Shown piece by piece: positions 9,654 through 61,912 of a DNA stretch of 64,000 nt; position 1 is the first letter of the stretch, and every line of letters begins with the position of its first letter. The DNA lies in contig OZ024740.1 of the NCBI GenBank assembly GCA_964016885.1, positions 273,544,001-273,608,000 on the forward strand, in the 5' to 3' direction. Below the pieces are notes generated by a model that saw only the letters and a program-made list of their open reading frames with translations, did not search any database and was not told where the DNA came from. Position numbers and translations under genes: made by a program. This stretch comes from Eledone cirrhosa. Lineage: Eukaryota.

Positions 9654-9703
<50 letters not shown>

Positions 9704-9725
9704 TTGTAAATATATATATATATAT

Positions 9726-10122
9726 ATACAATATATTAACAAATGGAAACTATATTTATAAAACCATATTTATTTCATTATACATATTTCAAGGACACCA
9801 AAGCAAATTATAGTGTGCTTTCATCAGATAAAATATAATATAGATCAGTTTTATAGGAGCTTCCAACAGACATGGTCGCATTCTTTTAAGGGTATGTCAA
9901 TATTTGTTTATAAAACTGATCTATATTATATTTTATTTGATGAAAGCGCACTACAATTTGCTTTGGTGTCCTTGAAATATGTATAATGAAATAAATATGG
10001 TTTTATAAATATAGTTTCCATTTGTTAATATATTGTATTTTTACTCCAAAAATTTGTTGAGTGCTTTGTATCAGTTATAAAAATATTTGCTTGTTGTATC
10101 CCAACAAATTAAATATAACTTC

Positions 10123-10124
<2 letters not shown>
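9726..10124. mobile_element. Inverted-repeat element (arms 9726-9855 / 9909-10038) in (TA)n with an HHR-like core
   Basis: Minus arm: CTGATGA-aagcacac...gtgtcctt-GAAA-tatgta; plus arm has TTGATGA; stem I imperfect. Confidence 0.75.
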
Positions 10125-10162
<38 letters not shown>

Positions 10163-19053: not shown

Positions 19054-19644
19054 AGGCGGTTTGTATAATAATATATTTTTATTTTATCATTCTGTCTGCT
19101 TCTTGGTTAAATATTTCAAACAAATGTGGTTTTTCAACCCTTGTAATTTTAGATACACGGTTTACTGTGTTTCTTACTATATATTATTAATCGGCTGAGT
19201 ATTTTTATACTTGGAGCTTAATAGTTACAGGGTTCCAATTGAGTTTTAACTCTAATTTTCATATATATTTCTGCTCCCTCACAAGTTGAGCTTATTAAGT
19301 TGTGTGCGTTGGACTGTTATTACTATTCAATACACGCTTACCACGTTTGACTAGCGGAGCACGAGGTGACAAATTCATCTTTCTGTATGAACGTTGGCAA
19401 ATAGTGTTTGTTGCATTTAATCAGATTCTCTCGCTGATGATGCCAAGGATTATCTGTTACAAACACACTCAGGGGGAAACAGATTAGGAATAATCTGTCC
19501 GAGAGATATAATGGTTATTGAGGCGGTTTGTATAATAATATATTTTTATTTTATCATTCTGTCTGCTTCTTGGTTAAATATTTCAACCAAATGTGGTTTT
19601 TCAACCCTTGTAATTTTAGATACACGGTTTACTGTGTTTCTTAC

Positions 19645-19653
<9 letters not shown>
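19054..19653 (+). mobile_element. Retrozyme-like element: about 130-bp direct repeats (467-bp period) in (TA)n with an internal HHR
   Basis: aggcggtttgtataat...cttactatatatta at 19054 and 19521; no ORF. Confidence 0.8.
19427..19506 (+). ncRNA. Type I hammerhead ribozyme, canonical core, GUC site
   Basis: tctctcg-CTGATGA-tgcc...gggg-GAAA-cagatta-ggaa-taatctg-TC^cgagaga; 7-bp stem I, 8-bp stem III, weak stem II. Confidence 0.8.
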
Positions 19654-19724
<71 letters not shown>

Positions 19725-20259
19725 GATGGATGCACCCTCGTTATCGAGTATTATCGCCATTGCACGATATACCATTATTAATAATTATTAATTATTTCGA
19801 TCGTGCAATGCCTGTGTGTCAAGTTATTTTTTAAAGTGAGGAAAGACTGTGCACTGAGCCAATCCCACTCTCTGAGCGACAGTAGCTATAACCAGAAAAG
19901 AAGAAAAGATCAACACCATCGGTAACTCTGAGCTGCAGGTTTTATATCGGAGTTATCCCAGTTTCCTGAGTTGCCTTCTCCTAGAAAGTCTTCTGAGAAA
20001 GTCTAGGTGTCCTTCACTCTCAGTGGTTTAACGGCGCAGTACATGTGTATATACATATTTACACACTTTCGGATGGCCGTTGACCCTGCAGGGTATCCAA
20101 AATCACCCTCCTCACCAAATATACTTGGTGGGGTTGCCGGTTTAGTCGCGACGACGGGACACGCGACAGGTTGTACTGGGTTACATGTTACCAGTAGCAC
20201 TCAAGAGTGACCTGACATATGTATATATATATATATACATACACTCTTACATACATAGG

Positions 20260-20290
<31 letters not shown>

Positions 20291-20471
20291 ATATATAGAA
20301 TTAATACATCTACCAGCATATGCGTACAGATGTACACTAATGCTAGTAAATATATAAGTTATGTCAAAGTACCTAGGTGGTTCAATGCAGGGGGATGCAG
20401 AACAATTATATGAAAGACGTAAAATAAGAAAATTTTAAAAATTAAAAATTAACTTACTTACTAATATTTTC

Positions 20472-20558
20472 ACTCCAACTAATTAGTTTCTTTTATGGGA
20501 TAAATATAACTAAATGGGACAATGTAACTATCGAGAATTCATTACGTCATCAGGGAGT
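20472..20558 (-). ncRNA. Hammerhead ribozyme (inverted copy)
   Basis: Reverse complement of the 20772-20853 motif, CTGATGA core intact, stem II partly decayed. Confidence 0.65.
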
Positions 20559-20771
20559 CTATTCTCAACTAAGTTTCCAGGCAATGCGCGGACACTAGGA
20601 ACCCATATAAAATAATAATTCAGTGGATGTAATAAGCTAGCGGGGACTAAATTCCATAGCACTGAAAAAGTTCACTGCTTCTGGTCAGCTAGCTTATTAC
20701 ATACACTGAATTATTATTTTTATATGGGTTCCTAGTGTCCGCGCATTGCCTGGGAACTTAGCTGAGAATAG

Positions 20772-20853
20772 ACTCCCTGATGACGTAATGAATTCTTGAT
20801 AGTTACATTGCGTAACTATATTTATCCCATTACAGAAACTAATTAGTTGGAGT
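20772..20853 (+). ncRNA. Type I hammerhead ribozyme
   Basis: actcc-CTGATGA-cgtaatg...cattaca-GAAAC-taatta-GTT^ggagt; stem I actcc/ggagt; palindromic stem III AACTAATTAGTT. Confidence 0.82.
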
Positions 20854-21306
20854 GAAAATTTTAGTAAGTAAGTTAACTTTCAATTTTTAAAATTTTCTTA
20901 TTTTACGTTTTTCATATAATTCTTCTGCATCCCCCTGCATTGAACCACCTAGGTACTTTGACATAACTTATATATTTACTAGCATTAGTGTACATCTGTA
21001 CGCATATGTTGGTAGATGTATTAATTCTCCATATTTATCTTCAAATTATTTGTTGAGCAAACTTGCCAAATCTACTGCTAATTCATAGTAGTAGTAGTAG
21101 GCTCTAGTCATAATACCACCCCACTCCTAACTGACTAACCTCAGTATCACGTGATTGATTCTTTAGAATCTACCACTGACCAGAAGCAGTGAACTTTTTC
21201 AGTGCTATGGAATTTAGTCCCCGCTAGCTTATTACATCCACTGAATTATTATTTTTATATGGGTTCCTAGTGTACGCGCATAGCCTGGGAACATAGCTGA
21301 GAATAG

Positions 21307-21388
21307 ACTCCTTGATGACGTAATGAATTCTCGATAGTTACATTGTGTAACTATATTTATCCCATTACAGAAACTAATTAGTTGGAGT
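21307..21388 (+). ncRNA. Hammerhead ribozyme, tandem copy with C3U change
   Basis: actcc-TTGATGA...GAAACtaattaGTT^ggagt. Confidence 0.65.
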
Positions 21389-21444
21389 GAAAATTTTAGT
21401 AAGTAAGTTAATTTTTAATTTTTAAAATTTTCTTATTTTACGTC

Positions 21445-21483
<39 letters not shown>

Positions 21484-21606
21484 GGTAAATATTGATGCAA
21501 TTCAATTCAAGCACTCAACGTTCTTTTTCCACATAGAAGTGACGGAGTAAATATCGAATAAGGAAAAGCGAAGTAGTGTCAGATGTTCAAGTCCTTTAAT
21601 AATAAT

Positions 21607-21680
21607 GCTGTGATATATATTTCAATGACGACACTGGCCACACTGTTCTGTGTGCGAGTGTCGTGTCATCATCAGACAGC
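21607..21680 (-). ncRNA. Type I hammerhead ribozyme, AUC site
   Basis: gctgt-CTGATGA-tgacacgacac...gtgtcgtcatt-GAAA-tatata-TC^acagc. Confidence 0.8.
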
Positions 21681-22138
21681 TTGTTACATAATAAGGTTAT
21701 GTTTCCGAGGCAATCCAAATTAAATCGACATGGGAACGGAATAAGTTCATGCTTTTGGGTTTTTCATCCGTTCCCTTGTGAGTATCAATTAACTCCCACC
21801 GGTCTGCGCAAGCGCATGTCCGAAGGAAATTGACCATTAGCCACCGCATATTTCAACGAAATTCGCTTAGTCAGTTCACCCTCTCAGCCAAACAATGGCC
21901 CACCTATGCCCCACCAAAGTTTACTGCTACCCATTACGACTGTGGCAGTCAGCCAAAAGCCAGAGGGGATGGGAGGGTGTTAGTTTTATAGGTCATAATA
22001 CTACCTCTCACTAAGCGTTGACAGTAGGACTGACCATCAACTCATAAGGTAAAATAAACTTAATTCTAAGTATCATGTATTTACATTGTAAGTTAAGAGC
22101 GAGAGTTGGAAATAAAAATTAACCTTATCATGTAACAA

Positions 22139-22212
22139 GCTGTCTGATGATGACACGACACTCGCACACAGAACAGTGTGGCCGGTGTCGTCATTGAAAT
22201 ATATATCACACC
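22139..22212 (+). ncRNA. Hammerhead ribozyme (partner arm)
   Basis: Same motif with one stem I mismatch (acacc). Confidence 0.75.
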
Positions 22213-22258
22213 ATTATTATTAAAGGACTTGAACATCTGAAACTCCTTCGCTTTTCCT

Positions 22259-22334
<76 letters not shown>

Positions 22335-30237: not shown

Positions 30238-30544
30238 TGAAACAAAATGAAAACGAAATTTCATTTCTCACTCTTAGTATGGCACTTACTTAAATGTAAG
30301 TATGCATGTATACGTACATACATATATGTATACAGACGTACAGTAGCATGTACATATATATATATATATATATACATATATACATACATATGCATACAGG
30401 TACACATACATATATGCACGTATCAGTTTAGCGGCGCTTATTATAACGTCGCTTTGTTCGTTTGTAAACAAACTGAACAGCCTGAATTTATGCCATACGG
30501 TGTTAAGGCAACCACGTCACCTTTTTGTTCAACACTGACACAGG

Positions 30545-30589
30545 AACGATGTACCAGTTTCAAGCTTGTTAGCTATCATCAGCACCGTT
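30545..30589 (-). ncRNA. Minimal type I hammerhead ribozyme (inverted copy)
   Basis: aacggtg-CTGATGA-tagctaacaagctt-GAAAC-tg-GTA^catcgtt. Confidence 0.78.
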
Positions 30590-30847
30590 TACCCATCTGC
30601 CAGATGGTTGAACGTTCGAAAGTATATACTTTCCTTATGAAAGTTAACGGCTGAGCAGCCTAATTTGCATAGTAAGTGCCATACTAAGAGTGAGAAATGA
30701 AATTTCGTTTTCATTTTGTTTCAATTTATCGTTTTCGGTATGCCTGACCGATTTAACTCACTCAATATGCAAATTAGGCTGCTCAGCCGTTAATTTTCAT
30801 AAGGAAAGTATATACTTTCGAACGTTCAACTCTCTGGCAGATGGGTA

Positions 30848-30892
30848 AACGGTGCTGATGATAGCTAACAAGCTTGAAACTAGTACATCGTT
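30848..30892 (+). ncRNA. Minimal type I hammerhead ribozyme, GUA site
   Basis: aacggtg-CTGATGA-tagctaacaagctt-GAAAC-ta-GTA^catcgtt; palindromic ACTAGT stem III. Confidence 0.85.
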
Positions 30893-31140
30893 CCTGTGTC
30901 AGTGTTGAACAAAAAGGTGACGTGGTTGCCTTAACACCGTATGGCATAAATTCAGGCTGTTCAGTTTGTTTACAAACGAACAAAGCGACGTTATAATAAG
31001 CGCCGCTAAACTGATACGTGCATATATGTATGTGTACCTGTATGCATATGTATGTATATATGTATATATATATATATATGTGCATGCTACTGTACGTCTG
31101 TATACATATATGTATGTACGTATACATGCATACTTACATT

Positions 31141-34670: not shown

Positions 34671-34775
34671 TATATATATATATATATATAAGCTTTCACC
34701 GTAATTTTTACTAAAGACATTTTTAGCATGATAGTGGGGTTTAGAACCCTCAGAGAAATGGAAAAAGATGAGTAT

Positions 34776-34846
34776 TGATGTACATGGGAGTCGAACCCAC
34801 ATCTTTGGTTATCCAGACCACTGTGCTACCATTACACCAACACATC
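34776..34846 (-). tRNA. tRNA-like sequence (inverted copy), anticodon position GGA
   Basis: Reverse complement of 35218-35288 with one variable-loop difference. Confidence 0.5.
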
Positions 34847-35217
34847 ACCCATCTCCTTCCATTCAAATTTGAAGCTACATTCTTAGCAAGTAAATGACAA
34901 GTAAGTATGTTTTGAAACAGTGAGCGAGTTTGAAATTAGAAATATAACCTTTCACCGTATTTTTTACTAAAGAAATTTTTAGCATGATAGTGGGGTTTAG
35001 AACGCTCAGAGAAATGGAAAAAGATGAGTATTGACGTACATGGGAGTTGAAATAAACAACTTTGGTTATCACACTATCAGGCTAAAAATGTATTTAGTCA
35101 AAGATACGGTGAAAGCTTATATTTCTAATTTCAAACTCGCTCACGGTTTCAAAACATACTTACTTGTCATTTACTTGCTAAGAATGTAGCTTCTAATTTG
35201 AATGGAAGGAGATGGGT

Positions 35218-35288
35218 GATGTGTTGGTGTAATGGTAGCACAGTGGTCTGGATAACCAAAAATGTGGGTTCGACTCCCATGTACATCA
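35218..35288 (+). tRNA. tRNA-like cloverleaf (71 nt), anticodon position GGA, short variable arm; probably a Pol III cassette rather than a decoder
   Basis: Acceptor gatgtgt/gtacatc; D arm gtgt-aatggta-gcac; anticodon arm tggt-ctGGAta-acca; T arm gtggg-ttcgact-cccat; TTTTT at 35298-35302. Confidence 0.55.
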
Positions 35289-35420
35289 ATACTCATCTTT
35301 TTCCATTTCTCTGAGGATTCTAAACCCCACTATCAGGCTAAAAATGTTTTTAGTTAAAAATACGGTGAAAGCTTATATTTATAATTTCAAACTCGCTCAC
35401 TGTTTCAAAACATACTTACT

Positions 35421-35477
<57 letters not shown>

Positions 35478-40509: not shown

Positions 40510-41434
40510 ATACATATATACATATATATATATATATCCATACATATATATAAAGACACACACATATATATACATATATATATATTTCTATGAACCTCTA
40601 TGCGTGTGAGTGTATGCATTTGTGCATCTAAATATATGTCTACATGCGTTGATACACCTCTCACCATATTTTCGTTGTTTTTTTCTGGGGTCTTCATTGT
40701 TATGTAGTTCTCATTATAAAAAAGTAAGTGACTCATTTATACAAATCACATTTTGTTCTCTAAAAAAAACCTATCTGTCTGCCTTTCTTTCTCTATCTTT
40801 TACCTCTCTCTTTCACCCTCCTCTCTTTCTTGCGCTCTCTCACTCCCACTTCACCACAATCCCCAATATTACCATCATGAACTTCTAAGAGAAAATATTC
40901 CCGTACAGTTTATGAAAGAAAATCTACAACCACCTCCTAACATTTCCTCTCACAATCTCATAACCGCTAGACATTAAAGTTGTGGTAAATTGAGAGCAAA
41001 AAACATGTAACATGTACTCTACTTCATAAATATGTATAAAAAATAGAGGCCAGGGCTGTGTTATTGATCTTAATTTATTAATGTCATTAATTCTTCTTCT
41101 TCTTCTTCTTATTATTATTATTATTATTATTATTATTGAATGCTATGGTTGACGGAGGCTCGGCTCTGTAAGGTATTGTAAATTTTGAACGCTATAACAA
41201 TTGTAAATTGTTTAAAACTTAGACCAACTTGTAGACAAAAACACCCTCCTCCTCGTGAGAGGGGTCTTTCTGCCCGTTATGTGGCCCTTCGGGTTAAATA
41301 ACTGCTTATTGGGGTTTTGTACCCAATATTTATTTTAAACAAAAAACAACATCGCTACGAAAAAGAAATTTCATAGGTCACTCCCACTCATTCCGTCTTC
41401 TTCTTCCTCAATCATCACTACAGCAGAGAGAAGA

Positions 41435-42595
41435 TTGTCTCTCTCCCTCCATTCTTTAAATGTGTCTCTCTCCCTCCCTTCTCTTTCGCAAGCGACGAAA
41501 GAAAAGAAAAGTCTCGTGCAAAGCGTGCAAGGTTTCTCCACGACGACGACGACAGCGACGAAACAGGTGTGCGGGAAATACGAAAACCCAGTTCATTCGT
41601 CTGACGTCAGGAATAATAGCAGTAGCAGTCGTAATAACAACAGCAACAGTGACAATGAAAACAACAGTAGCAGCCGCAACAGCATCACCAGCAGCATAAA
41701 CAACAACAGCATTAGCAGCAGCAACACCAACAACAACCACAGCAACAGCGGCGGAGGCAGTAGTCGTAGTACCTGCAGCAACAACAAAAGTACCAGCAGC
41801 TCTGACGACAACAACAACAACAGCAGCAAAGAAAAACCAATCTCATTTGCAGGTATTGCGAAAAACTTGGAAACAATCCTCATAACAAATGAGGAATTAG
41901 AGGAAGCGAAGAAGATGGTGACAAAGAATGGAGACCGAGCAATCTGCAAGGCAGCGGAAAAGTTTTTCGACACCAAACAGCACTGTACGGTCACGTACCG
42001 TACAGTAAGTACAAAATCCCGTAGGGTGGAAAGAGCCACAGAGGCTCAAATACAAAAAGCCTTGGGGTCTGTGTGGCAGCGGAAAACGCACATCACCCGA
42101 GGCAAAAAATATGCCACCGTAGACGTACTTGTTGCCACACCCCAGGAGGCAAAGGCCCAATCAGTAGTGACCCTAAGGAGCGAGGAAATGGTGTTGGTGC
42201 CCTCCTACTGCGGGCAAAAAATTGTGAGGGTCAAACTGACCCACGTCCCCCCTGGAATGGCCCCTTCTTGGCTGGCCGCGTCTGTCCTCGTCGGAATCGA
42301 GGACAAAACAACTGTACTGCAAGTACAGAAAAAAGTAAGAGAAGATTGGGTCGGCACCTCCATTGAGATGCTAATCCAAACCAACCAGGAGTGCATCGAA
42401 GCTATCCCGGATGTGATAGACTTCGATAACGGCACTCAACTGCCCATAAGTGTTGAGGGAAAACGCCCGAAATGCTTTCGCTGTGGATCGAAAACTCACC
42501 TCAGGGCCTTCTGCAACGAGAAGACTCTGAGAAAGGAGAAAACCCCCTCCTTCCAAAACCGGCTCCACGGCTACCAGCAACAGGACAAGCGGTAA
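41435..42595 (+). CDS. LINE ORF1, gag-like zinc-knuckle protein (start uncertain; C-terminal part continues in another frame to 43454)
   Basis: CFRCGSKTHLRAFC (CX2CX4HX4C); homologous to 47244-48491. Confidence 0.8.
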   Translation: MSLSLHSLNVSLSLPSLSQATKEKKSLVQSVQGFSTTTTTATKQVCGKYENPVHSSDVRNNSSSSRNNNSNSDNENNSSSRNSITSSINNNSISSSNTNNNHSNSGGGSSRSTCSNNKSTSSSDDNNNNSSKEKPISFAGIAKNLETILITNEELEEAKKMVTKNGDRAICKAAEKFFDTKQHCTVTYRTVSTKSRRVERATEAQIQKALGSVWQRKTHITRGKKYATVDVLVATPQEAKAQSVVTLRSEEMVLVPSYCGQKIVRVKLTHVPPGMAPSWLAASVLVGIEDKTTVLQVQKKVREDWVGTSIEMLIQTNQECIEAIPDVIDFDNGTQLPISVEGKRPKCFRCGSKTHLRAFCNEKTLRKEKTPSFQNRLHGYQQQDKR

Positions 42596-43489
42596 CCAGG
42601 AACGATAGGTCCGTGGCACCCATGCCCACGCCAAGGAAATCAAAAACAGCAGCAGCAGTGGAAATATTAACAACAACAACAGCAATATACCAAATGCAGC
42701 TGCAACAGAGACTCCAGTGCAAACATCACCAACAACAACAGGTGAAAGAGTGGAGCTGGTACCCCTCCCCGACCTCACAGAATCAGACATGGAGTGTGAG
42801 GTGGGAGAGGGATGGCAAAAGGTCGTAAGAAGGCACAAACGCAGAAGCAGCGCATCGTCGCCTTTGAAAAGGGAGGAAAGAAATGAGAAAAGGGTAAAGT
42901 CTACTGCAAAGAGACCCACAGCAGCAACACCACCAACACCATCACCGCCCACACTAGCACCACCATCACCACCGGCGACAACCCCACCGCCAACAACACC
43001 TTCAACACCACCACTACAAGCACCAACATCGCAAACACAACAACAAAACACACACACCCAGCAACAACGACAAGAAAATAGCAGAACCACACCCCACCCC
43101 CAGAAAAACAAATGCACGGCAATAAATACACACAACAAGAAACTAATGACTTACATAATTGAACACACAGACATTTCACAACACGACTACATAATACCAG
43201 CACCAATCAAAACGCTAACTAACATAAGACTGCTAAAAATAGCACAGAAACAATACACAAACATTAAAACGAAATTCCCCAACGCAGTTGGTGATTTGAG
43301 GGACCTAGGAGGAACTATCAATCGAAGAGTATATTCAGACATTCTCTTAGAAGAGCCGACGACCAGCCGAAGGGACGATTCAACGGTCCCTTCACCAGAC
43401 GATCAAGTGAAAAGGGATGTAAAAACCATCCCTCCTCTACCAAAAGTACGGTAAGTGGTCTTTCCCATCTTTTCCACTCTATTTTAAAC

Positions 43490-46400
43490 ATGACCTCACT
43501 CAGAATAGGCAGCATAAATGCGCGTGGCTTGGGGTCGTCATGGAAGCAGGGTCACCTGCTCAACGACCTCAGGTCACTAAACATAGATGTAGTGGCCATC
43601 AGCGAGACCAGAATCTCCGAAGCACGGGCCTTCGCACCGATCTTCGGCGGCTACGATGTGTACGCATCTCCCAGCCGTCCTGGATCGGGGGAGGAGTTGC
43701 TGTGCTTTTTCGGAGAGGTTTGGATCTCGCCATACGGGCCATCTTCCTGGACCCAGAGGGTAAGCTGGTGGTGCTGGACGTGACCAGCGGAGACGGGCAA
43801 GCTTTCAGGCTAGTGGCCGTCTATGCCCCGACAGGAGCACGGCGGCCTGATTTCTTCCGGCGTCTGGAGACCTTTCTTGGAACGTCCCGCTCTTTAGTGT
43901 TAGTGGGCGACTGGAACGGGATCTTAGATGCACGCTGGGACTGTGTGGGATTAGCGGATAGGGGTGGAGGGTGCAAGAGCCTCACCAACCTGCTCAGGCG
44001 TTTTGAAATGTCTGACAGGTACCGATTGGATTTCCCGAATGTGCCAATGTGGACTTGGACAAATCGCATAGGGTCATCCAGATCATATCTAGATAGAGTA
44101 TTTTGTAGGGAAATAGATAGGTCTAGCATAGGCTGTCCACAATTCAAGATAGTCAGCTACACGGACCACAAATTCGTGATCTGTGTGCTTGACTTAGATA
44201 GGCTTCATAGACGAGGACCCGGCTACTGTAAGCTAAACGCGTCCTTACCAGCGCGCAAGGCCTACAGAGACCGGATTAGAGAACTAGTTAAGCGGGCGTT
44301 GACGGTGGCCATCGTCAACAAGTGGTGGTTTGTTCTGAAAAGAGCGATTAGAATAGAATCGATTAGGTTTAGTAAGGCTTTAGCAATAGAGAAAAATAGA
44401 GCAGAGGGAGAACTAGTTAGAAAATTAGACGAGGCGCTTAGCAAAGACATTGCGACCGACGTGCTTGATGCGAAATTGGCCCTTGACCAATTCTTCAATA
44501 CAAAGCACGAGTGGCGGAGGCGCGTCGTGGCAACAAAGCCACGATCCGGTCTTTGGTGGACCACGACGGGCGCATGCTACTCGATCCCGGGCAAATGTGT
44601 GAAGCTTTTCAGCGACACTTCGTTCAGCTGTTCGGGGGCAGCGGTGGGGCGGGTCGACGGATGGACTTTAGTGTCTATCTCGACGGACTGCCGCGGCTCT
44701 CGACCACAGAGGCGAAGTGTTGCGAAAAGCCGATAACAGCCGCTGAAGTAAGGGAGGCATTGACTGGCTGCACAAGGGGTAAATCGCCTGGTTTGGATGG
44801 TCTGCCCTATGAACTTTATGTACAGATGCCAGACTTGTTTAGAGGCCTCTTGGCGGACGTCTACTGCAACTGGCAACAGAACGGGAGAATTCCCAGTTCT
44901 GTGAGCCGAGGAGCGGTGGCACTGCTGAGAAAGGATCCGAACAAGGGGGATAACATAGATAATTTCCGGCCCATAACTCTGCTAAACACAGAGTTCAAGA
45001 TTTTGGCCAAGGTGCTAGCAAATAGGTTGGCGCTTGTCGTTGGTGGTCTGGTGGGAGAGGCGCAGACATGCGCCATTCCCGACAGATCCATCCACGACAA
45101 CCTCCACCTCATGCGATACATCGTAGAGAGGGTAGCTAGGGAACCTGGCACGGGTGGGTCCTTGATCAATTTAGATCAGTCGAAAGCTTTCGATAGGGTC
45201 GACCATCGTTACCTAGCGGCAGTCCTGAGGGCGGCTGGCTTTGGGCCCGTCTTTAGAGGCTGGATCGCTGCCATGCACAGCGACATCTGCGCTCGGTCCG
45301 CCAAGGATGTCCCCTCTCGTCCCTCTTGTACGTAGTGACTCTCGAGCCATTACTGCACAAACTGGAGACGTTAAGGGGCATCCCGCGCGAACTAGGATGC
45401 GGAAGAACCGTGTCAGCATATGCGGACGATGTCACCGTAGTGGTGTCGAACGCCAAACACATCGAGGCGATCGGCACTACACTAAGAGAATACGAAGCGG
45501 TGACAGGAGCAATGATCAACCAGGAAAAGTCAGTGGGCCTGCAGCTCGGCACCTGGAGAGGCAGGTCCATGCCGTCCAACAGCATCGCGGACGCTGGACG
45601 GAGGGACCGGTTAAATTGCTAGGGGTCTGGTTCGGTTCGGACCTCCAGACGGACAAAAACTGGGACGAGGTGACGAGCAGGGTGGCTTCTCTCACCCAGA
45701 AATGGGCGGAGAGGAAGCTATCCCTGAAAGGTCGAGCGGAGGTGGCTAACGCGTACATCGCGTCTGTCATCTGCTACCGCCTGACCGTCGTACCTTGTCC
45801 TAAGCCTCGCCTGACTGCGCTGGAGCGTTTGCTCTTTCGCTTTTTGTGGAAGGGACGCGCTCCGATGGTCTGGCGGTCCATCAGTTGTCAACACCCGCTA
45901 CGTGGAGGGCTGGGTATGCCGTGGCTGATGATGCGCAGGCACGCGCTCAGGCTACGACATTTCCACCTCTTCCTCGACGGTGATCAGGTGTGGTCGGCGT
46001 TTGCTAGACACGTATTTCCCCAGCTCGTTTCCTTGACGGAGCTGCAGTCCTGGGTCAAGCGAAGACCGAGAGGGAGCGCCTGGAGACTGGAATGTCTTCA
46101 GGCGCTCACAGCCCTCGACCAATCGGGCAATGTGATCGGTGGAAACTCCACCTCGGCGTTCTATAGAGGATTAGTGGAGGGGAAGAGCGACGACGTACTT
46201 GGGGAAACTCTAGGCGTCGACGAAAATCAACTAGCCAATCTCTTCGGAAGAAATTTCGGGCCAGGGCCTATGGACAACTTCCAGAAATCTCTGGCCTGGC
46301 AGTGCTACCGAGGAGCCTTGCCAGTTCGGGATAAACTCTACAGGCATGGAGGTGCCGTCAGCCGGGCATGTCCGAGATGCGCGCAGGGCGACGAAACCGT

Positions 46401-46787
46401 CCTGCACGCACTCGTCCAGTGTCCGAAAATTGGTGACTTGTGGGTTTATGTCGAACACCTGCTGTCGCGTTTAGGACGGATCCGGCTATCATCTCAGTCC
46501 ATCGTGAGGATTTCCCCGCCCTCCTCCTTTAGCCGGGAAGGGCAGGCAATTTTTATCATCTGGTGGCCATGGCGAAAGAGATAGTATGGTTGACACGTTT
46601 GAAAGGGCTGAAGACGAGCTTTTACCACTTCGGTGATGCTCTGATTGACTTTTTCAAATTTCATATGAAAAGGGTATTGAATCAGAGTAGAGAGGAAAGT
46701 GCTCTCTTCCCAGCATTTTGTTGAAAGATGGGTGAGAGAAGCAAGAATGGCCCGAGTGAATGGGCCTACTTGAGTATATATCTGTAA
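43490..46787 (+). pseudogene. LINE ORF2 (AP endonuclease, reverse transcriptase, C-terminal Cys motif), frameshifted and internally deleted
   Basis: SINARGL, ISET, VYAP, GDWN, YLDR, TDH; KSPGLDG, NFRPITLLNTEFKILAK, DQSKAFDRVDH, AYADD; CPRC..DETVLHALVQC. Confidence 0.92.
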
Positions 46788-47243
46788 ATTAAAGGTGGAA
46801 AACTGGGAGAGGGCTCTTGCCTTGGTGATCAGGGTCATTGTGGCTTTTTACTGGGCTTTCTCCACAAATGTCCCTCCGAAGTCTCCCCCCTATTGGGGAA
46901 TTTTTCATTGTTTTTTTTTTTACACGCAGAAATGCCCATTTGTACCGCCCTGTATTGTCCTGCACTGTCCTTAATGTCTACTTTATGTAAACCCTTGTGG
47001 TTAATAAAGAAATCATAATTATTATTATGTGTGAAGACAGACAAGTCTGCGGGGGAAAAGGTTCTTAGCTTTAAGCTGTTTTAAAGTGTCTTTTTTTGTA
47101 TTTTCTTGTCATTAACGAAACTTAAGGTACACATCTTGATTTAAAGAGAGGGATACCTCTCAATATTCGGGCTTTAAGCCCGAATATTCAGATTTATTTT
47201 TTAAAAACTTCGAAAAAAATCGCTTCCCCACCAAAAGAAAATT

Positions 47244-48491
47244 ATGGAAATTTTCGACCTTGAAACGGTAAACAACGTTCAGGTCAAAAGTTTAAAGGCA
47301 GCCACTGCAGATTTCGCCACGACTACGACGGCTACAGTCATGCCTGTCATCCACTCTACTGAATGTGAAGGCAAAACTAAAAAGCTACCATCACAACCTT
47401 CTGCCATAGCAGCAGTATCATCTGAAAACGACATCACCACCACCGCCACCACCACCACCACCACAACAACAACAACTCAGAGCAATAACGACAAAAACAC
47501 CGACAGCTTCAATGTAAACAAGGATGGCGGTGGCAACAGCAAGAATGACAACAACAATAAGAGCATCAGAAACACCACATTTGCTGCAGCAGCAGCAAAA
47601 ACAAAGCGCTTATTGAATATCGATATTGATATTAGCGATAAAGACGAACAGTTGGCCAAAACGTGGAGGCTAATTAAACGGGAGAAGTCCTGGGCAAACC
47701 TGACCATCCCCGACGAGGCAATAGCGGCCATGCAAAGGAGGACGGTGCTCTTTCGATGTATTTCGGTGCAGACACGAAAAGTGGAACTTGCGAGCCAAGC
47801 AGAGGTAGAGGCTGCTTTGGAGTACATCGGAAGTAACATAGAGTACAAAGCAAGAGGCAAACAGTTCGGTACCATCTCGGTACTGTTCAAAACCGAGGCC
47901 CTCGCTATTAAGCACTCGGTGACCCTCTGCAGAACAGAACGCATTATCATGCATCCGTCCTATATGGGTAAAAGGACAGTGAAGGTACGCATTCCCAGCA
48001 TCCCACCAGGAATGAACATATGGTGGCTGCTGGGATGTGTAATCGAGGAGGGGACAGACACCACCCTCCTGGACATCAAAAGGACAGAGAGAGAGGACTG
48101 GTCCGGAATGGATTTGGAGATTCTTCTCCAAATGAAACCGGAGGATATGAATAACATCCCAGATTTTGCCCGCCTGCAGGACGGGACAACAATCCAACTA
48201 ATGATTGACGGAAGAAGGCCACGCTGCTTCGTTTGCGGGGGTGCAACGCATCTTCAAGCCTTCTGCCCTCAGCGCAAAAATGCAGGGGGTCGCAAACCTC
48301 CTTTGTTGCCAACGCCAGTGTCAGCACGGAAAGCTGCACCACCACCACCACCACCAAAAACAAGATCAACAAAAACACGGACACCAACATCAAAAGCAGC
48401 CGGATCACAACCAACACCAAAACCAATCCAAGGAGAAAACGAGGAAAGCTCTCCCCCTCCCCCTACCCCCCCCCCCCAATTATACACATAG
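47244..48491 (+). CDS. LINE ORF1, gag-like zinc-knuckle protein (frameshifted continuation to about 49195)
   Basis: CFVCGGATHLQAFC; Pro/Thr/Lys-rich tail. Confidence 0.82.
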   Translation: MEIFDLETVNNVQVKSLKAATADFATTTTATVMPVIHSTECEGKTKKLPSQPSAIAAVSSENDITTTATTTTTTTTTTQSNNDKNTDSFNVNKDGGGNSKNDNNNKSIRNTTFAAAAAKTKRLLNIDIDISDKDEQLAKTWRLIKREKSWANLTIPDEAIAAMQRRTVLFRCISVQTRKVELASQAEVEAALEYIGSNIEYKARGKQFGTISVLFKTEALAIKHSVTLCRTERIIMHPSYMGKRTVKVRIPSIPPGMNIWWLLGCVIEEGTDTTLLDIKRTEREDWSGMDLEILLQMKPEDMNNIPDFARLQDGTTIQLMIDGRRPRCFVCGGATHLQAFCPQRKNAGGRKPPLLPTPVSARKAAPPPPPPKTRSTKTRTPTSKAAGSQPTPKPIQGENEESSPPPPTPPPQLYT

Positions 48492-49229
48492 ACAAAAAAA
48501 ATAAACGCACACACAGACACAGAGACACTCACAGACACAGACCCTTTGTCTTCCAGCAGCGAAGATGAAGGAAAACCCAAAAGTGCAAAAAAACAGAGAA
48601 AACTCACAAAAAAAAAGCCCCAACAAAATACAAAAACACACACAACAAAAAATACAGACACCACTAACGCAAACACTTCCCTAATAACATTAGCACCATC
48701 AGCAACATCGACACCACGTCCACAATCCCCGAAACGCAAACAACCTAAACAAACACAAGTACAAATAAACACACAAATACCTGAAATTGCAGACACCACA
48801 CCTACAAAAAACATAGACATACCCGAAACAACACCACCAAAACCATCGCCACCACCTTCACCAAAACGAAAACAAATAAAACCACACCAACAAAATGTTA
48901 AAAACTTCGTGCTTGTCAGAAGGGCCAACGATAAACTGATGGCCCTCTTAGCGCGAAGCGTGGACATTCAAACAGAGGGGGAGATTTTTGAAATGAGCAC
49001 ATTTTGCGTGCCAGAAGATTTGCTTCTAGTCCGAATGTAACTCAATTCCTTCAAAGAAATTCGAGAGAGCTTTCCTCAAGACGTGGGAAACCCGAATGTG
49101 AAACCCATATCAAGACTTTTAAAGGGGTTCCCAAAAGAAACCCCACCAACCATGGAGGTCGAACCACCCGACCTTCACAAGACCCGGGAGGTAAGTAAAC
49201 CTTCCCTCTCTCTCTCTTAGCTTACCAAT

Positions 49230-52200
49230 ATGGCAATATTAAGAGTAGGAAGTTTAAATGTTCGCAGCCTGGGGTCAGCCTGGAAGCAGGGTCGCCTGCT
49301 CAACCACCTCCGGTCGCTGGAAATGGATTGCCGTAAGCGAGACCAGAATTTCCGACACGCGCGCACTAGTCCCCATTTTCGACGACTATCAGATCTTCGC
49401 ATCTGTTATCAGGCCGGGAATGGGGGTGGGGTAGCAGTGCTGTTTAGGAAAGGACTGGATCTCGAGGTAAGGTCGATCTTCCTGGACCCGGACGGTAAGT
49501 TGGTGGTCTTGGATGTGAGCAGTAGCGAAGGTGGTGCCTTTAGACTGCTGGCCGTCTACGCCCCTACAGGGGCCGGACGACCTGACTTCTTTAGGCGCCT
49601 GGAGACCTTTCTGGGTACGTATCGCCCTTTACTGTTAGCGGGGGACTGGAATGGCATCTTAGACGCACGCTGGGATTGTGTGGGAGTAGCCTATAGGAGC
49701 GGGGTGTGCAAAAAGCCTCAAGCACCTACTCAGCCAGTTCCAACTGTCTGACAGGTATCGACTAGATTTCCCCAATGTGCCAGTATGGACATGGACCAAC
49801 CGAATGGGGTCATCTAGATCGTATATAGACAGAATCTTCATTAGGAAAATAGAAAGAAATAGTGTGGGCTGTCCACTTTTTAAAACGGTCGATATTCAGA
49901 TCACAAATTTGTGATCTGTACGGTCGACCTAAGTAAAACGCGTAGGTTAGGACCGGGTTACTGGAAGCTGAACATGTCATTTCCGGCACGTAAGGCTTAC
50001 AGGGACCGAGTCAACAATTTAGTTAAGCAAAAGTTGACTGGGGGGATCATCAGCAACAGATGGTGGAGGGGGGCTCTCAAAAGAGAGATTAGAGTAACTT
50101 CGATAGAGTTCACCAAAGAACTAGCGTTAGAGAAAAATAGAAAGGAGGGGGAGCTGGTAGATAAGTTAGACGAGGCTATTTGTCGTGGCATCGCAACGGA
50201 CGTGATAGCGGCGAGAATGGCATTAGACCATTTCTTCAATGCCAAACACGAGGTTGCATTGTCAGAGCTAAGGCGCGTGCGCTGTGAAACGAGGGAACTA
50301 AAGCTTTTCGATGGGCCCGCGTGGCGGAGGCGCAGCGTGGTAATAAAACCACAATTCGGTCTTTGGCGGACCGAGTCGGACACGAGATAAGCGATTCCAA
50401 GCAGATGTGTGAGGCCTCTCGCCAGCACTTTGCTCGGTTGTTCGGGGAGAGTGGCGAGTCAGAGAGAGTAGCGGGTTTCAGTCCCTACCTTGACGGCTTG
50501 CCGCGCATCTCGACGGTCGACGCTGAGCGCTGCGAAAGGCCGATTACTTCAGCCGAAATTCAGGACGCCCTTGTCGGCTGCATGAGTCACAAGTCACCCG
50601 GTTTGGATGGCCTGCCCTACGAGCTTTGCGTAAATATGCCAGACTTGTTCTCCGAACTCCTCGAAGAACTCTACTGTAACTGGCAGCAGAATGGGAGTAT
50701 TCCCAGTTCTGTGAGCAGGGGAGTGGTGACGCTGATAAGGAAAGACGAGAACAAGAGGGATACATTAGACAACTTCAGGCCCATAACTCTGCTCAACACA
50801 GAGTTTAAGATTTTGGCCAAGGTGTTAGCAAAGAGATTGGCGCTTGTCGTCGAGGATTTGGTTGGGGAGGCGCAAACTTGCGCAATCCCAGCCAGGTCCA
50901 TACACGACAATCTCCACCTCATGCGATACATCATAGAGAGGGTAGGGTGTAAACCTGGCTTCGGTGGGGCACTGATCAATTTAGATCAATCGAAAGCATT
51001 CGATAGGGTCGACCATTGGTATCTGGAGTTTGTCCTCAAAGCAGCTGGCTTCGGCCCTGTCTTTAGAAGCTGGATTGTTGCAATGCACAGCGCCACACGC
51101 TCGGTGGTCAGGGTTAATGGCCACCTCTCGGAACCATTTCGGCTCTCCCGATCGGTCCGTCAAGGGTGCCCTCTCTCTTCCCTTCTGTACGTATTGAATC
51201 TCGAGCCTTTACTGCGGAAGCTGGAGCTGTTGCAGGGCATCCCCGTCGAACCGGGACGTGGAAAGGCAGTGTCGGCTTATGCGGACGACATCACCGTGAT
51301 GGTGTCGAACACCTCAAAAATCGAGATGGTCGGCACCTTATTGAAGGAATATGAAAGGTTGACAGGAGCCAAACTTAACCCGGAAAAGTCGGTTGACTTG
51401 CAGATCGGAACCTGGAGAGGCAAGCCCATGCCGTCCAACAGCGCCTTGGGGCGCTGGACGGACGGACCAGTAAAGTTGCTCGGGGTTTGGTTCGGACTAG
51501 ACCTCCAGGTGGAAAAGAATTGGGACGAGGTAACGAGCAGAGTAGCCAGTCTCACCCAAAAATGGGCTGGGAGGAAGCTATCACTGAAAGGTCGCGCGGA
51601 GGTGGCGAATGCGTACATCGCGTCCGTCATCTACTACCGCCTAACCGTCGTGCATTGCCCCCGTCCGCGCCTCTTCAAGTTGGAACGGCTCCTCTTCAAA
51701 TTCTTGTGGAGGGGATAAGTTCCGTTTGTGAGGCGGTCCATCTGCTGCCAGCACCCTCTACGCGGAGGGCTGGGCATGCCGTGGCTAATGATGCGCAGAC
51801 ATGCGTTGAGGCTTCGACATCTCCAGATATTCTGCCTCAATGGTGAACAGGTGTGGTCGCCGTTTATCAGACGGGCCTTTCCGCAGCTCATTTCTTTGAC
51901 TGAGCTGCAGTCCTGGGTCAAGAAGAGACCGAGACTGGGTGACTGGCACCTGGAAAATTGCCAGGCACTCACTGCCCTCTACCAAGCGGGCAATGCGATC
52001 AGTGGAACTTCCACTCTCGAGTTCTATAGAGGATTAGTGGTGGGCAAGTGCGATGACGCACTCGGAGAAGCTTTGGGCCTCGACGAAGTCGAACTGACCA
52101 GTCTGTACCGGAGGACATTTGAGCCGGGGACGATGGACAATTTCCAGAAATCCCTCGATTGGCAGTGCTACCGGGGGGCACTGCCGGTTCGGGATAAACT

Positions 52201-52647
52201 CTACAGGCACGGAAGTGCTGTCAGACGGACCTGCCCTAGATGCGCACAGAACGACGAAAGCGTTCTGCACGCACTTGTCCAATGTCCGTGCATTACTGAC
52301 TTGTGGAGTTATGTCGAACAGCTACTGTCGCGTGTGGAACGAATCCGGCTATCGGCCGAGTCCATAGTGAAGATCGAGCCGCCACCTTCCTTAGGTCAGG
52401 AAGAGCAGGACATTTTCCTCTGTCTGGTGGCAGTTGCGAAAGAGATTATATGGTGGACCAGGTTGAAAGGACTAAAGACAGACACTTTTCTCATCGGCCA
52501 ATCCCTCATCCACTTCATCAAGTTTCACTGGAAAGGAGGGTGAGGGTGGAGAGAGAAGTGCTGCCCCCCAGTACATTTGCTAAAAGGTGGGTGAATGTGG
52601 CGAGAATGGCTCGTGTGAATGGGCCTACTCTGACCATGCGCCTATAG
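49230..52647 (+). pseudogene. LINE ORF2 (APE, RT, Cys motif) with frameshifts and a stop
   Basis: SLNVRSL, VYAP, GDWN, PGYWKLN, KSPGLDG, RSVRQGCPLS, AYADD, CPRC..DESVLHALVQC. Confidence 0.93.
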
Positions 52648-61107: not shown

Positions 61108-61594
61108 TATACATATATATATATATAAATATATATATAAATATATATATACATAAATATATATATATATATATATATATAAATATATACATAAATATAT
61201 ATATATATATATAAATATATACATAAATATACATACATATATATATATATATATACATATATAGATAAATATATATACATATATATATATATATAAATAT
61301 ATACATAAATACATATATATATTTTTATATATATATATATAAATATATAAAGTCTGAAGAATTGTTAAAGACAGTTGTTTGTGTTGCGATGAGAGGAGAA
61401 GGAGGAGGCGTTAAGAATGCTCGAGAGTGAGAACGTAGGAGGGATAGTGGCAGGATAAGAAGGCATTTGCAATTAACGTTACTCAAGCTTCGTATAACTT
61501 ATATTAATAGAAAAAAGTATCTGTAACAAAATAACGAACACAAGCGAAAATCACCAATATATATATATATATATATATATATTTTATAGAAGGA

Positions 61595-61643
61595 GCTTCT
61601 ACAGGACTAGTACTGTTTCATTCAGATGAAATCTTCAGGAAGC
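61595..61643 (-). ncRNA. Type I hammerhead ribozyme, GUA site
   Basis: gcttc-CTGAAGA-tttcatctgaat-GAAACAG-tactagtc-CTGTA^gaagc. Confidence 0.82.
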
Positions 61644-61706
61644 ACACAGTAAGTAAGGTACTCAATACATGGCAGAGTAAAATTTTTTTTTAATTTTATA
61701 GAAGGA

Positions 61707-61755
61707 GCTTCTACAGGACTAGTACTGTTTCATTCAGATGAAATCTTCAGGAAGC
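61707..61755 (-). ncRNA. Type I hammerhead ribozyme, tandem copy
   Basis: Identical motif to 61595-61643. Confidence 0.82.
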
Positions 61756-61912
61756 TCAGGAGCTGTGTGTGTGTGTTTGTGTGTAACTCTATTGTGTGTA
61801 ACTGAATGAAACAGTACTAGTCTTGTAGAAGCTCCTTCTATAAAATAAAAAAAAAATTTTACTCTGCCATGTATTGAGTACCTTACTTACTGTGGTTATC
61901 CCCGACTCAACG

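What the first reader, a model, noticed from the sequence alone, without database searches (positions are those of the whole stretch)
20297..21450. Clearest retrozyme-like locus: 535-bp tandem unit plus inverted copy, three HHRs
Two same-strand HHRs 535 nt apart would excise a unit-length monomer (20849-21383). The palindromic stem III AACTAATTAGTT would allow the dimeric fold. The inverted arm begins in a different phase of the unit than the forward arm, consistent with a circular or multimeric template.
Basis: partly seen in the sequence, partly recalled or inferred. Interest (0 to 1): 0.75.

Follow-up and report, generated by a model that had tools for sequence, protein, structure and literature searches.

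The report
Penelope-driven hammerhead repeat with stuttering ends
This is one decayed copy of an abundant non-coding jumping repeat that carries a predicted self-cutting RNA motif and sits in TA microsatellites as two back-to-back arms ending at two fixed sites, a footprint likely left by Penelope-type retrotransposon enzymes, which likely also add short CT repeats as they start copying.

Summary
The repeat geometry and three hammerhead motifs are real. The locus is one insertion of a family with 9,366 exact matches to a 20-nt ribozyme word in this genome. It has an inverted arm (20297-20688) and a forward arm (20689-21450), both ending in (TA)n.

Family 3' ends fall at two fixed sites, about 67 (A) and 179 (B) nt past the predicted cut. 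Of 86 two-armed copies, 77 pair A with B, 1 is A/A, none B/B and 8 have an off-site end. A protein-coding Penelope-like element here leaves the same footprint.

Helix II covaries across subfamilies. At this locus only one of the three ribozymes is intact, so release of a 535-nt monomer is unlikely. The arms' different 5' phase is near-random truncation; circle versus linear multimer stays undecided. B ends gain (CT)n mostly where the template reads CTCT (21/24 vs 3/13), suggesting stuttering at initiation. No partner element was found.

Verdict: new member of the known Penelope-derived animal retrozymes. The scan had noted this two-arm footprint in other families here and in other genomes.

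The parts
20217..20297 (.). (TA)n microsatellite, left part of the target
   Evidence: TRF; sequence
20297..20688 (-). Inverted arm ('B arm', 392 nt). Its 3' end is at fixed site B (about unit position 179) next to (TA)n; its 5' end is truncated at unit position 328
20472..20558 (-). Hammerhead motif 3: core intact (20547-20553), helix II broken by private changes; predicted inactive
   Evidence: (z +0.36)
20688..20689 (.). Head-to-head junction of the two 5'-truncated arms, with a 1-nt overlap
   Evidence: overlaps of 1-5 nt in 40 of 86 family junctions
20689..21450 (+). Forward arm ('A arm', 762 nt, 1.42 units). Its 5' end is truncated at unit position 375; its 3' end is at fixed site A (about unit position 67) next to (TA)n
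20772..20853 (+). Hammerhead motif 1, intact: helix I 5 bp, core CUGAUGA, C-A mismatch at the base of helix II, 6 bp + 8x8 loop + 8 bp helix II, palindromic helix III, GUU triplet, predicted cut after 20848
20849..21383 (+). One full 535-nt unit, cut site to cut site; no ORF of 150 aa or more; folds better than shuffles (z -4.85)
20916..21027 (+). Internal copy of the 112-nt 'tail' between sites A and B. It holds a long hairpin (20970-21021) that is predicted in all five subfamily representatives and ends about 6 nt before site B
21307..21388 (+). Hammerhead motif 2 with C3>U at 21312; predicted impaired; predicted cut site after 21383
21449..21480 (.). (TA)16 microsatellite, right part of the target
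   Evidence: TRF

Best explanation
This is one decayed insertion of an abundant, non-coding, hammerhead-bearing tandem repeat whose two head-to-head arms end at two fixed sites in a (TA)n tract, likely written into the genome by a Penelope-like reverse transcriptase/endonuclease borrowed from a protein-coding element. Proposed steps: (1) a more-than-unit RNA is made, either a ribozyme-cut and ligated circle or an uncut multimer (inferred, undecided). (2) The enzyme, likely a dimer, binds the hairpins of the 112-nt tail and nicks both strands of a (TA)n tract (inferred). (3) One nicked strand primes at site A and the other at site B (the one-of-each pairing is shown; the priming is inferred). 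(4) At site B the enzyme likely slips on CUCU and adds (CT)n (the tracts are shown; the slippage is inferred). (5) Both cDNAs run backwards through the ribozyme, stop at near-random points and are joined head to head by microhomology (ends and junctions shown). This copy has since lost two of its three ribozymes and is likely a dead end.
For: Two-site rule: 77 A/B, 1 A/A, 0 B/B and 8 with an off-site end among 86 two-armed insertions. In the 39 taken in genome order it is 34 A/B, 0 same-class, 5 off-site. A third, distant subfamily gives 14 A/B, 0 A/A, 2 off-site of 16 (that query required an A end). (TA)n lies next to 202 of 207 A or B ends. Positive control: a 738-aa, 4,011-bp tandem element with a hammerhead ends at two sites 87 nt apart in (TA)n, one of each in 4 clean cases of 10 fetched two-armed loci. 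Papers describe the same layout: partial tandems, an inverted 5'-truncated copy and a tail at one end (PMC8557442; PMC3846280). They also report two internal start sites, both strands extended and a predicted dimer (PMC11167929). Helix II covaries: pair 42:92 AU 10/UA 8/CG 4, pair 45:89 GC 15/UA 6. The core is CUGAUGA in 162 of 172 motifs. Locus-specific alleles are shared between arms at 1.0/kb (in register) and 0.3/kb (out of register), against 0.018/kb between loci. (CT)n of 4 or more units occurs at 21/24 B ends with a CTCT template against 3/13 without; 0 of 73 internal sites exceed 2 units. The flank next to the A end is (TA)n in 24 of 25 such copies.
Against: No protein-coding partner sharing DNA with the unit was found: none among 30 GIY-YIG loci, 34 loci of a 784-aa family, five neighbouring elements or the 738-aa family. 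The link to Penelope enzymes therefore rests on the footprint. One A/A case (L023) exists, and L011 has arms from subfamilies 16% apart, so not every pair comes from one RNA. In the control family one locus was B/B with identical flanks, two were complicated or incomplete and three could not be resolved. The tail is 112 nt, longer than the 30-40 nt in the papers read. For stutter, 3 of 13 ends have a tract without a CTCT template, as does 1 of 14 in the third subfamily. Cleavage, expression and circles were not observed.
Confidence: 0.82

Rival explanations
1. One reading: this locus itself is an active retrozyme whose two same-strand ribozymes release a 535-nt monomer that circularises.
For: The cut sites are exactly 535 nt apart. 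The palindromic 10-bp helix III self-pairs at -9.0 kcal/mol. By inference, the intact core 1 could cut site 2 in the dimeric fold and site 1 in the monomeric fold. Axolotl retrozymes with weak helix II cleave better as dimers (PMC7229834 passages).
Against: Copy 2 has U3 (3 of 172 motifs). In a forward-arm transcript the predicted mean pair probabilities are 0.32 for helix III of copy 1 and 0.11 for the dimeric helix. With the inverted arm included, copy 1 is fully masked. Only 1 of 9 Xenopus retrozyme dimers cleaved in vitro (10.64898/2026.07.22.740005).
Confidence: 0.12
2. Family-level sub-model 1: the template is a monomeric circular RNA copied round and round by the Penelope-like enzyme.
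For: Arms reach 3,248 nt (about 5.8 units) with no wall at any unit position; 61 of 207 arms exceed 735 nt. Most unit pairs in young locus L209 differ by 0-2 substitutions, and the larger counts trace to homopolymer tracts. Where three or more copies overlap, 31 derived alleles are shared by all copies against 15 by a subset. The ribozyme is conserved across subfamilies 70-95% alike.
Against: The 15 subset alleles include unit-by-unit sharing between the arms (L002, L014, L028), which a monomer circle cannot give. In-register arms share derived alleles at 5.1/kb against 3.0/kb for tandem units and 2.3/kb out of register. The 5' ends are about twofold enriched at 0-19 nt past the cut (21 vs 10.5 expected), as for a cut linear RNA, though other bins are as high. 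In vitro, uncut RNA was the dominant substrate of a Penelope-like enzyme (PMC11167929).
Confidence: 0.5
3. Family-level sub-model 2: the template is a linear multimeric transcript from tandem source copies, or a cut linear unit that the enzyme re-enters by template jumping; circles are not needed.
For: In-register allele sharing between arms in L002 and L014 follows the 3' register rather than fold-back symmetry (L117 did so only before strict masking). Mosaic arms occur (L023, L024, L046). There is a mild pile-up of 5' ends just past the cut site.
Against: Other subset patterns split by arm (L208, L218) or by fold-back (L208), as later gene conversion would. No array longer than about six units per arm was seen in the loci sampled, so a long source is not shown.
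Confidence: 0.4
4. The tandem and inverted layout arose at DNA level (unequal crossover, fold-back repair) from a dispersed repeat, and the (CT)n tracts are ordinary microsatellite slippage.
For: The genome is extremely rich in microsatellites (112 TRF rows in the window). Some allele patterns point to conversion after insertion.
Against: DNA fold-back would give arms ending at the same site or at random sites, not one A and one B in 77 of 78 scoreable pairs. Internal copies of the same CTCT site never expand (0 of 73).
Confidence: 0.04

Closest known systems
Metazoan non-LTR retrozymes (PMC7229834, passages read; bioRxiv 10.64898/2026.07.22.740005, parts 1-3 of 5 read)
   Same: Non-coding, low-GC tandem unit with a type I hammerhead in each unit, dispersed in many copies, coexisting with Penelope-like elements; the preprint derives such repeats from pLTRs.
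   Different: The unit is 523-556 nt, against 150-450 nt in PMC7229834 (51-972 nt in the preprint). Arrays are short partial tandems. The parts read mention no inverted arms or paired 3' ends. Helix II is long and two-part with a conserved C-A mismatch. Circles and cleavage are not shown here, and this copy fails the preprint's criterion of two complete motifs.
Insertions of endonuclease-bearing Penelope-like elements: pLTR, inverted 5'-truncated copy, one-sided tail (PMC8557442, PMC3846280, PMC2377424, passages read)
   Same: Partial tandem plus head-to-head inverted copy, tail at one end only, (TA)n targets, hammerhead with palindromic helix III (PMC4209133, parts 1-2 of 4 read).
   Different: No ORF. 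The tail is 112 nt instead of 30-40 nt. The one-of-each rule is counted here (77 of 78 scoreable pairs), whereas the papers say 'often' or 'optionally'. No partner with shared sequence was found.
Poseidon element of Anolis in vitro (PMC11167929, main text read)
   Same: Two internal start sites downstream of the hammerhead, AT-rich target, both strands extended, predicted dimer.
   Different: That study saw no difference in start site between the two strands, pooled over molecules. Here each insertion uses one site per arm, and both sites carry TA-like bases that could pair with the target. No stutter is reported in the text read.
Template slippage at LINE/SINE 3' repeats (UnaL2; PMC3747384, passage read)
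   Same: Short repeats at the priming site likely slip during reverse transcription.
   Different: Here the slippage would occur at an internal start site on a two-unit CUCU template, in a Penelope-type system, and would build up to 24 units.

Membership tests
Type I hammerhead ribozyme | Core CUGANGA / GAAA / NUH in type I order | tested here: met
   Copy 1 and 162 of 172 family motifs. Copy 2 has U3.
Type I hammerhead ribozyme | Helices I-III, with covariation | tested here: met
   Helix II 95.5% paired, two pairs with changes on both sides. The 3' strand of helix I and all of helix III were fixed by the search word for most rows, so they give no covariation.
Type I hammerhead ribozyme | G10.1-C11.1 pair directly before G12 | tested here: not met
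   A C-A mismatch precedes the G-C pair in 168 of 172 motifs. A U-U mismatch at the base of helix II is described in an active axolotl motif, so this lowers but does not exclude activity.
Type I hammerhead ribozyme | Match to a curated Rfam hammerhead model | tested here: not met
   No hit at gathering score or at E up to 10.
Type I hammerhead ribozyme | Self-cleavage | not testable with these tools
   Needs in vitro transcription.
Metazoan non-LTR retrozyme | Non-coding tandem unit of a few hundred nt, low GC, without LTR features | tested here: met
   535-nt unit with no ORF of 150 aa or more; surrounding 2 kb is 36% GC. PBS and PPT were not searched for separately.
Metazoan non-LTR retrozyme | Two consecutive units with complete motifs | tested here: inconclusive
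   Not met at this locus. Met in 9 of 58 order-sampled loci and in young arrays such as L209.
Metazoan non-LTR retrozyme | Expressed as linear and circular unit RNA | not testable with these tools
   No RNA holder listed; this is no evidence either way.
Non-autonomous Penelope-like element | 5'-truncated partial tandem with adjacent head-to-head inverted copy | tested here: met
   86 of 131 insertions are two-armed.
Non-autonomous Penelope-like element | Two fixed 3' ends; tail at one end | tested here: met
   77 A/B, 1 A/A, 0 B/B, 8 off-site. Same pattern in a coding element.
Non-autonomous Penelope-like element | Hammerhead upstream of the 3' ends; AT-rich or microsatellite target | tested here: met
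   Ends 67 and 179 nt past the cut; (TA)n at 202 of 207 ends.
Non-autonomous Penelope-like element | Sequence shared with the pLTR of a coding RT + GIY-YIG partner | tested here: inconclusive
   None found. These cover only a few of many families (10,597-74,289 candidates per search, 150 scored).
Non-autonomous Penelope-like element | Target-site duplication | not testable with these tools
   Cannot be read inside (TA)n without empty alleles.

The most novel reading that the evidence does not exclude
A Penelope-type reverse transcriptase dimer loads on one small circular ribozyme RNA, primes the two strands of a cut (TA)n tract at two different internal sites, and stutters telomerase-like on a two-unit template before escaping. 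Each jump then writes a new (CT)n microsatellite, and perhaps extends the (TA)n that later copies target, so the family helps build the microsatellites it lands in.
Probability: 0.27. Interest if true: 0.7.

Novelty: new member of a known kind. Interest (0 to 1): 0.4.

Why it matters
The class is known, and the scan has met this footprint in other families. This family still makes two open points about Penelope-type copying testable with numbers. First, the 'tail at one end' is a near-strict one-of-each rule (77 of 78 scoreable pairs), which points to coupled priming of both strands by one complex. Second, (CT)n tracts of up to 24 units appear only at one priming site and mostly where the template reads CTCT. 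If that is slippage, a relative of telomerase adds short repeats at initiation and seeds microsatellites in a genome full of them. The ribozyme is also an atypical variant that Rfam misses (long two-part helix II, conserved C-A mismatch).

Tried and rejected
(1) Partner search. Five coding neighbours, a 784-aa RT + GIY-YIG family, 30 GIY-YIG loci and a 738-aa family share no DNA with the unit beyond AT-rich noise (best E 0.006). Family copies inside such loci (L066, L187) are neighbours.
(2) L1-type twin priming, in which one arm stops where the other primes: rejected, because 5' ends do not cluster at sites A or B.
(3) RNA-editing scars (a lead from earlier scan notes): no strand skew. Shared alleles A>G 17 vs T>C 12 (p 0.14); private 26 vs 42 (p 0.39). 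The A>G run in L208 is found in other loci.
(4) Circle versus linear by allele sharing. A first pass favoured a linear multimer. After masking homopolymers and adding 20 loci the subset patterns were mixed, so it is undecided.
(5) A pre-existing (CT)n(TA)n target: not supported. In 25 two-armed copies with a tract, the flank next to the A end is (TA)n in 24; two have a CT run further out.
(6) Expression: no RNA holder listed; read support was not obtained.
(7) Rfam: only chance miRNA-like hits.
(8) A conserved GTAAG just after the cut resembles a 5' splice site, but the candidate acceptor is not conserved across subfamilies; not pursued.
(9) The scan note found by sequence (e1-2475533, 3 of 98 words) is unrelated.
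Rows dropped before counts: 9 duplicate loci, L110 (twin of L109), L013 (twin of L008) and two stray fragments. Compound or mosaic loci (L011, L023, L051, L058, L123, L143, L212) were left out of the strict allele tests but kept, with compound ones split by hand.

Full report
OBSERVATION. The region holds a 231-nt direct repeat at 535-nt spacing and an inverted copy, bounded by (TA)n on both sides. I numbered the unit from the predicted cut (U1 = 20849). The inverted arm 20297-20688 runs from U328 through the cut to about U179. The forward arm 20689-21450 runs from U375 through two cuts to about U67. The arms meet head to head with a 1-nt overlap. Three type I hammerhead motifs are present. 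Copy 1 is intact and folds better than shuffles (z -2.97). Copy 2 has C3>U. The inverted copy has lost helix II (z +0.36). These defects are private or nearly so among the loci sampled.

FAMILY. The window lies in a 3.0-Gb genome. An exact 20-mer of the ribozyme occurs 9,366 times, and the reversed control 0 times (the forward count is a round 5,000 and may be a cap). The first 100 matches fall in 63 clusters, which suggests roughly 6,000 insertions (my estimate). I examined three samples: 51 distinct loci ranked by similarity plus 2 more from that list, 59 of those 63 clusters in genome order, and 18 multi-copy loci of a young subfamily. A fourth set of 27 loci of a distant subfamily was scored apart. 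Subfamilies are about 70-95% alike, with units of about 520-560 nt.

RIBOZYME. Of 211 anchored motifs, 172 were complete enough to score. The core is CUGAUGA in 162, and a C-A mismatch sits at the base of helix II in 168. In 22 diverse copies helix II is 95.5% paired, with compensatory changes at two of six pairs (AU/UA/CG and GC/UA), and the distal helix also covaries. The shuffle control ignores relatedness, but three different pair types at one position are hard to get without structure. Most rows were found by the 20-mer, so helix III and the 3' strand of helix I are conserved by construction. Rfam does not recognise the motif. A long helix II, a short helix I, an extra nucleotide after A9 and a small palindromic helix III are described for Penelope-like hammerheads, which cleave weakly and as dimers (PMC4209133, parts 1-2 of 4). 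The passages I saw of PMC3088659 do not describe the C-A mismatch. Supplementary alignments of these papers were not seen and may.

THE TWO-SITE RULE. Arms end 3' at site A (about U67) or site B (about U179), next to (TA)n in 202 of 207 cases. Of 131 insertions, 86 are two-armed: 77 A/B, 1 A/A, 0 B/B and 8 with one or both ends off-site. In genome order the count is 34 A/B, 0 same-class, 5 off-site of 39. Four copies scored as single-armed show a stub of the opposite class in the flank. The distant subfamily adds 14 A/B and 2 off-site of 16. The 5' ends are spread over the whole unit at about 0.0018 stops per base, and 40 of 86 junctions overlap by 1-5 nt. The 112 nt between A and B carry a long hairpin predicted in all five subfamily representatives.

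POSITIVE CONTROL. A coding tandem element of the same genome (738-aa frame, 4,011-bp period, hammerhead in its non-coding part) ends at two sites 87 nt apart in (TA)n. Of 10 two-armed loci fetched, 4 are clean A/B, 1 is B..A with an intervening piece, 1 reached one end only, 1 is B/B with identical flanks, and 3 were unresolved. I call it Penelope-like from its layout and motifs. Pfam gave no hit for its 298-aa C-terminal fragment, whereas a second, 784-aa family scored RVT_1 and GIY-YIG. [quoted passage not shown] In vitro, a Poseidon protein starts at two internal sites that bound the tail, extends both strands and is predicted to be a dimer (PMC11167929, parts 1-2 of 4). A 2026 preprint derives animal retrozymes from pLTRs (parts 1-3 of 5; its supplements are closed). 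No coding partner sharing sequence with this unit was found, and only a few of many families were seen.

TEMPLATE. Both arms usually come from one template lineage. Alleles seen in no other sampled locus are shared between arms at 1.0 and 0.3 per kb, and between tandem units at 0.7 per kb, against 0.018 between loci. L011 is an exception, with arms 16% apart. For a circle: arms up to 5.8 units, no wall at any position, near-identical units in young loci, and 31 alleles shared by all copies. For a linear multimer: unit-by-unit sharing between arms in L002, L014 and L028, higher sharing in register (5.1 vs 3.0 and 2.3 per kb), and a twofold excess of 5' ends just past the cut (21 vs 10.5; uncorrected p 0.003, other bins as high). 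The 15 subset alleles are of mixed kinds, as later conversion would give. I leave this near even. No RNA-editing skew was found.

STUTTER. B ends often carry (CT)n between the element and (TA)n, up to 24 units. Among 37 loci with both a terminal and an internal copy of the site, tracts of 4 or more units occur in 21 of 24 with a CTCT template and 3 of 13 without (Fisher p 0.0002; loci are related, so this is generous). None of 73 internal sites exceeds 2 units. In 25 two-armed copies with a tract, the flank next to the A end is (TA)n in 24, so the tract was probably not in the target. One of 14 B ends in the distant subfamily has a tract without CTCT in its representative unit. The focal copy has no tract. 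I infer slippage at initiation; growth after insertion is not excluded. Slippage at 3' repeats is known for LINEs (PMC3747384 passage). Searches listed no paper whose title or abstract start reports it, or the one-of-each count, for Penelope-like elements. The library lacks most subscription journals, and Repbase and Dfam were not searched.

THIS LOCUS. In a forward-arm transcript, helix II forms in both copies (0.92-0.94), but helices I and III of copy 1 only at about 0.3 and the dimeric helix III at 0.11. A transcript that includes the inverted arm masks copy 1 entirely. C3 and G8 changes abolish activity in the Poseidon motif. C3>U itself was not tested there, so impairment is inferred. Nine of 58 order-sampled loci have two or more intact motifs in one arm and are better test objects. 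No RNA holder was listed, which is no evidence either way.

EARLIER SCAN NOTES. After my own count I found notes describing the same two-arm, two-site footprint in other families of this genome and in other genomes. They are unchecked AI notes and add no support. They show the pattern is not unique to this family. One gave the editing lead, which failed here.

VERDICT. This is a new member of the Penelope-derived animal retrozymes (confidence 0.82), with a decayed focal copy. Interest 0.4, carried by the strict pairing rule and the template-dependent (CT)n tracts.

Noticed in passing
window 9700-10130, 21556-22263, 30400-31050, 61580-61900: Four other short elements, unrelated to the unit, with hammerhead-like motifs and inverted or tandem copies. 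The one near 9.8 kb resembles the hammerhead region of the coding 738-aa element (by eye). The one at 21556-22263 ends in (TC)19(TA)16 although its other arm shows no CTCT template.
   Followed up: partly
window 34686-35421: Element with inverted arms, each holding a tRNA-like 71-mer (Rfam tRNA at 34776-34846 and 35218-35288), ending in (TA)n; possibly a tRNA-derived repeat with the same insertion style.
   Followed up: no
window 41339-52543: Two tandem, broken non-LTR retrotransposon copies (endonuclease, RVT_1, zf-RVT), 72-75% alike.
   Followed up: no
window 19054-19654: A 134-nt direct repeat at 467-nt spacing between (TA)n tracts, likely another partial-tandem element.
   Followed up: no
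L096 (G000:C5:17087000-17096999), L098, L099: Very abundant young element with a 455-aa frame overlapping a 784-aa RT + GIY-YIG frame, 4,734-bp period, microsatellites inside its non-coding part, and no canonical hammerhead found by my pattern. A two-frame layout is unusual for this class as I recall it.
   Followed up: partly
L011 (G000:C5:35830922-35834452) and L023 (G000:C4:226175112-226178641): L011 joins an A arm and a B arm from subfamilies 16% apart. L023 has tandem units 9-10% apart and is the only A/A case. Both suggest two RNAs in one event, or template switching.
   Followed up: partly
L250 (G000:C4:268669300-268677900): Two-armed coding element with both ends at the long site and identical flanks on both sides: a larger palindrome or an assembly artefact.
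   Followed up: no
window about 20860-20873 and 21150-21160: A GTAAG motif just after the cut site and a TCACGTG motif are conserved in all five subfamily representatives; possible splice donor and promoter element.
   Followed up: no
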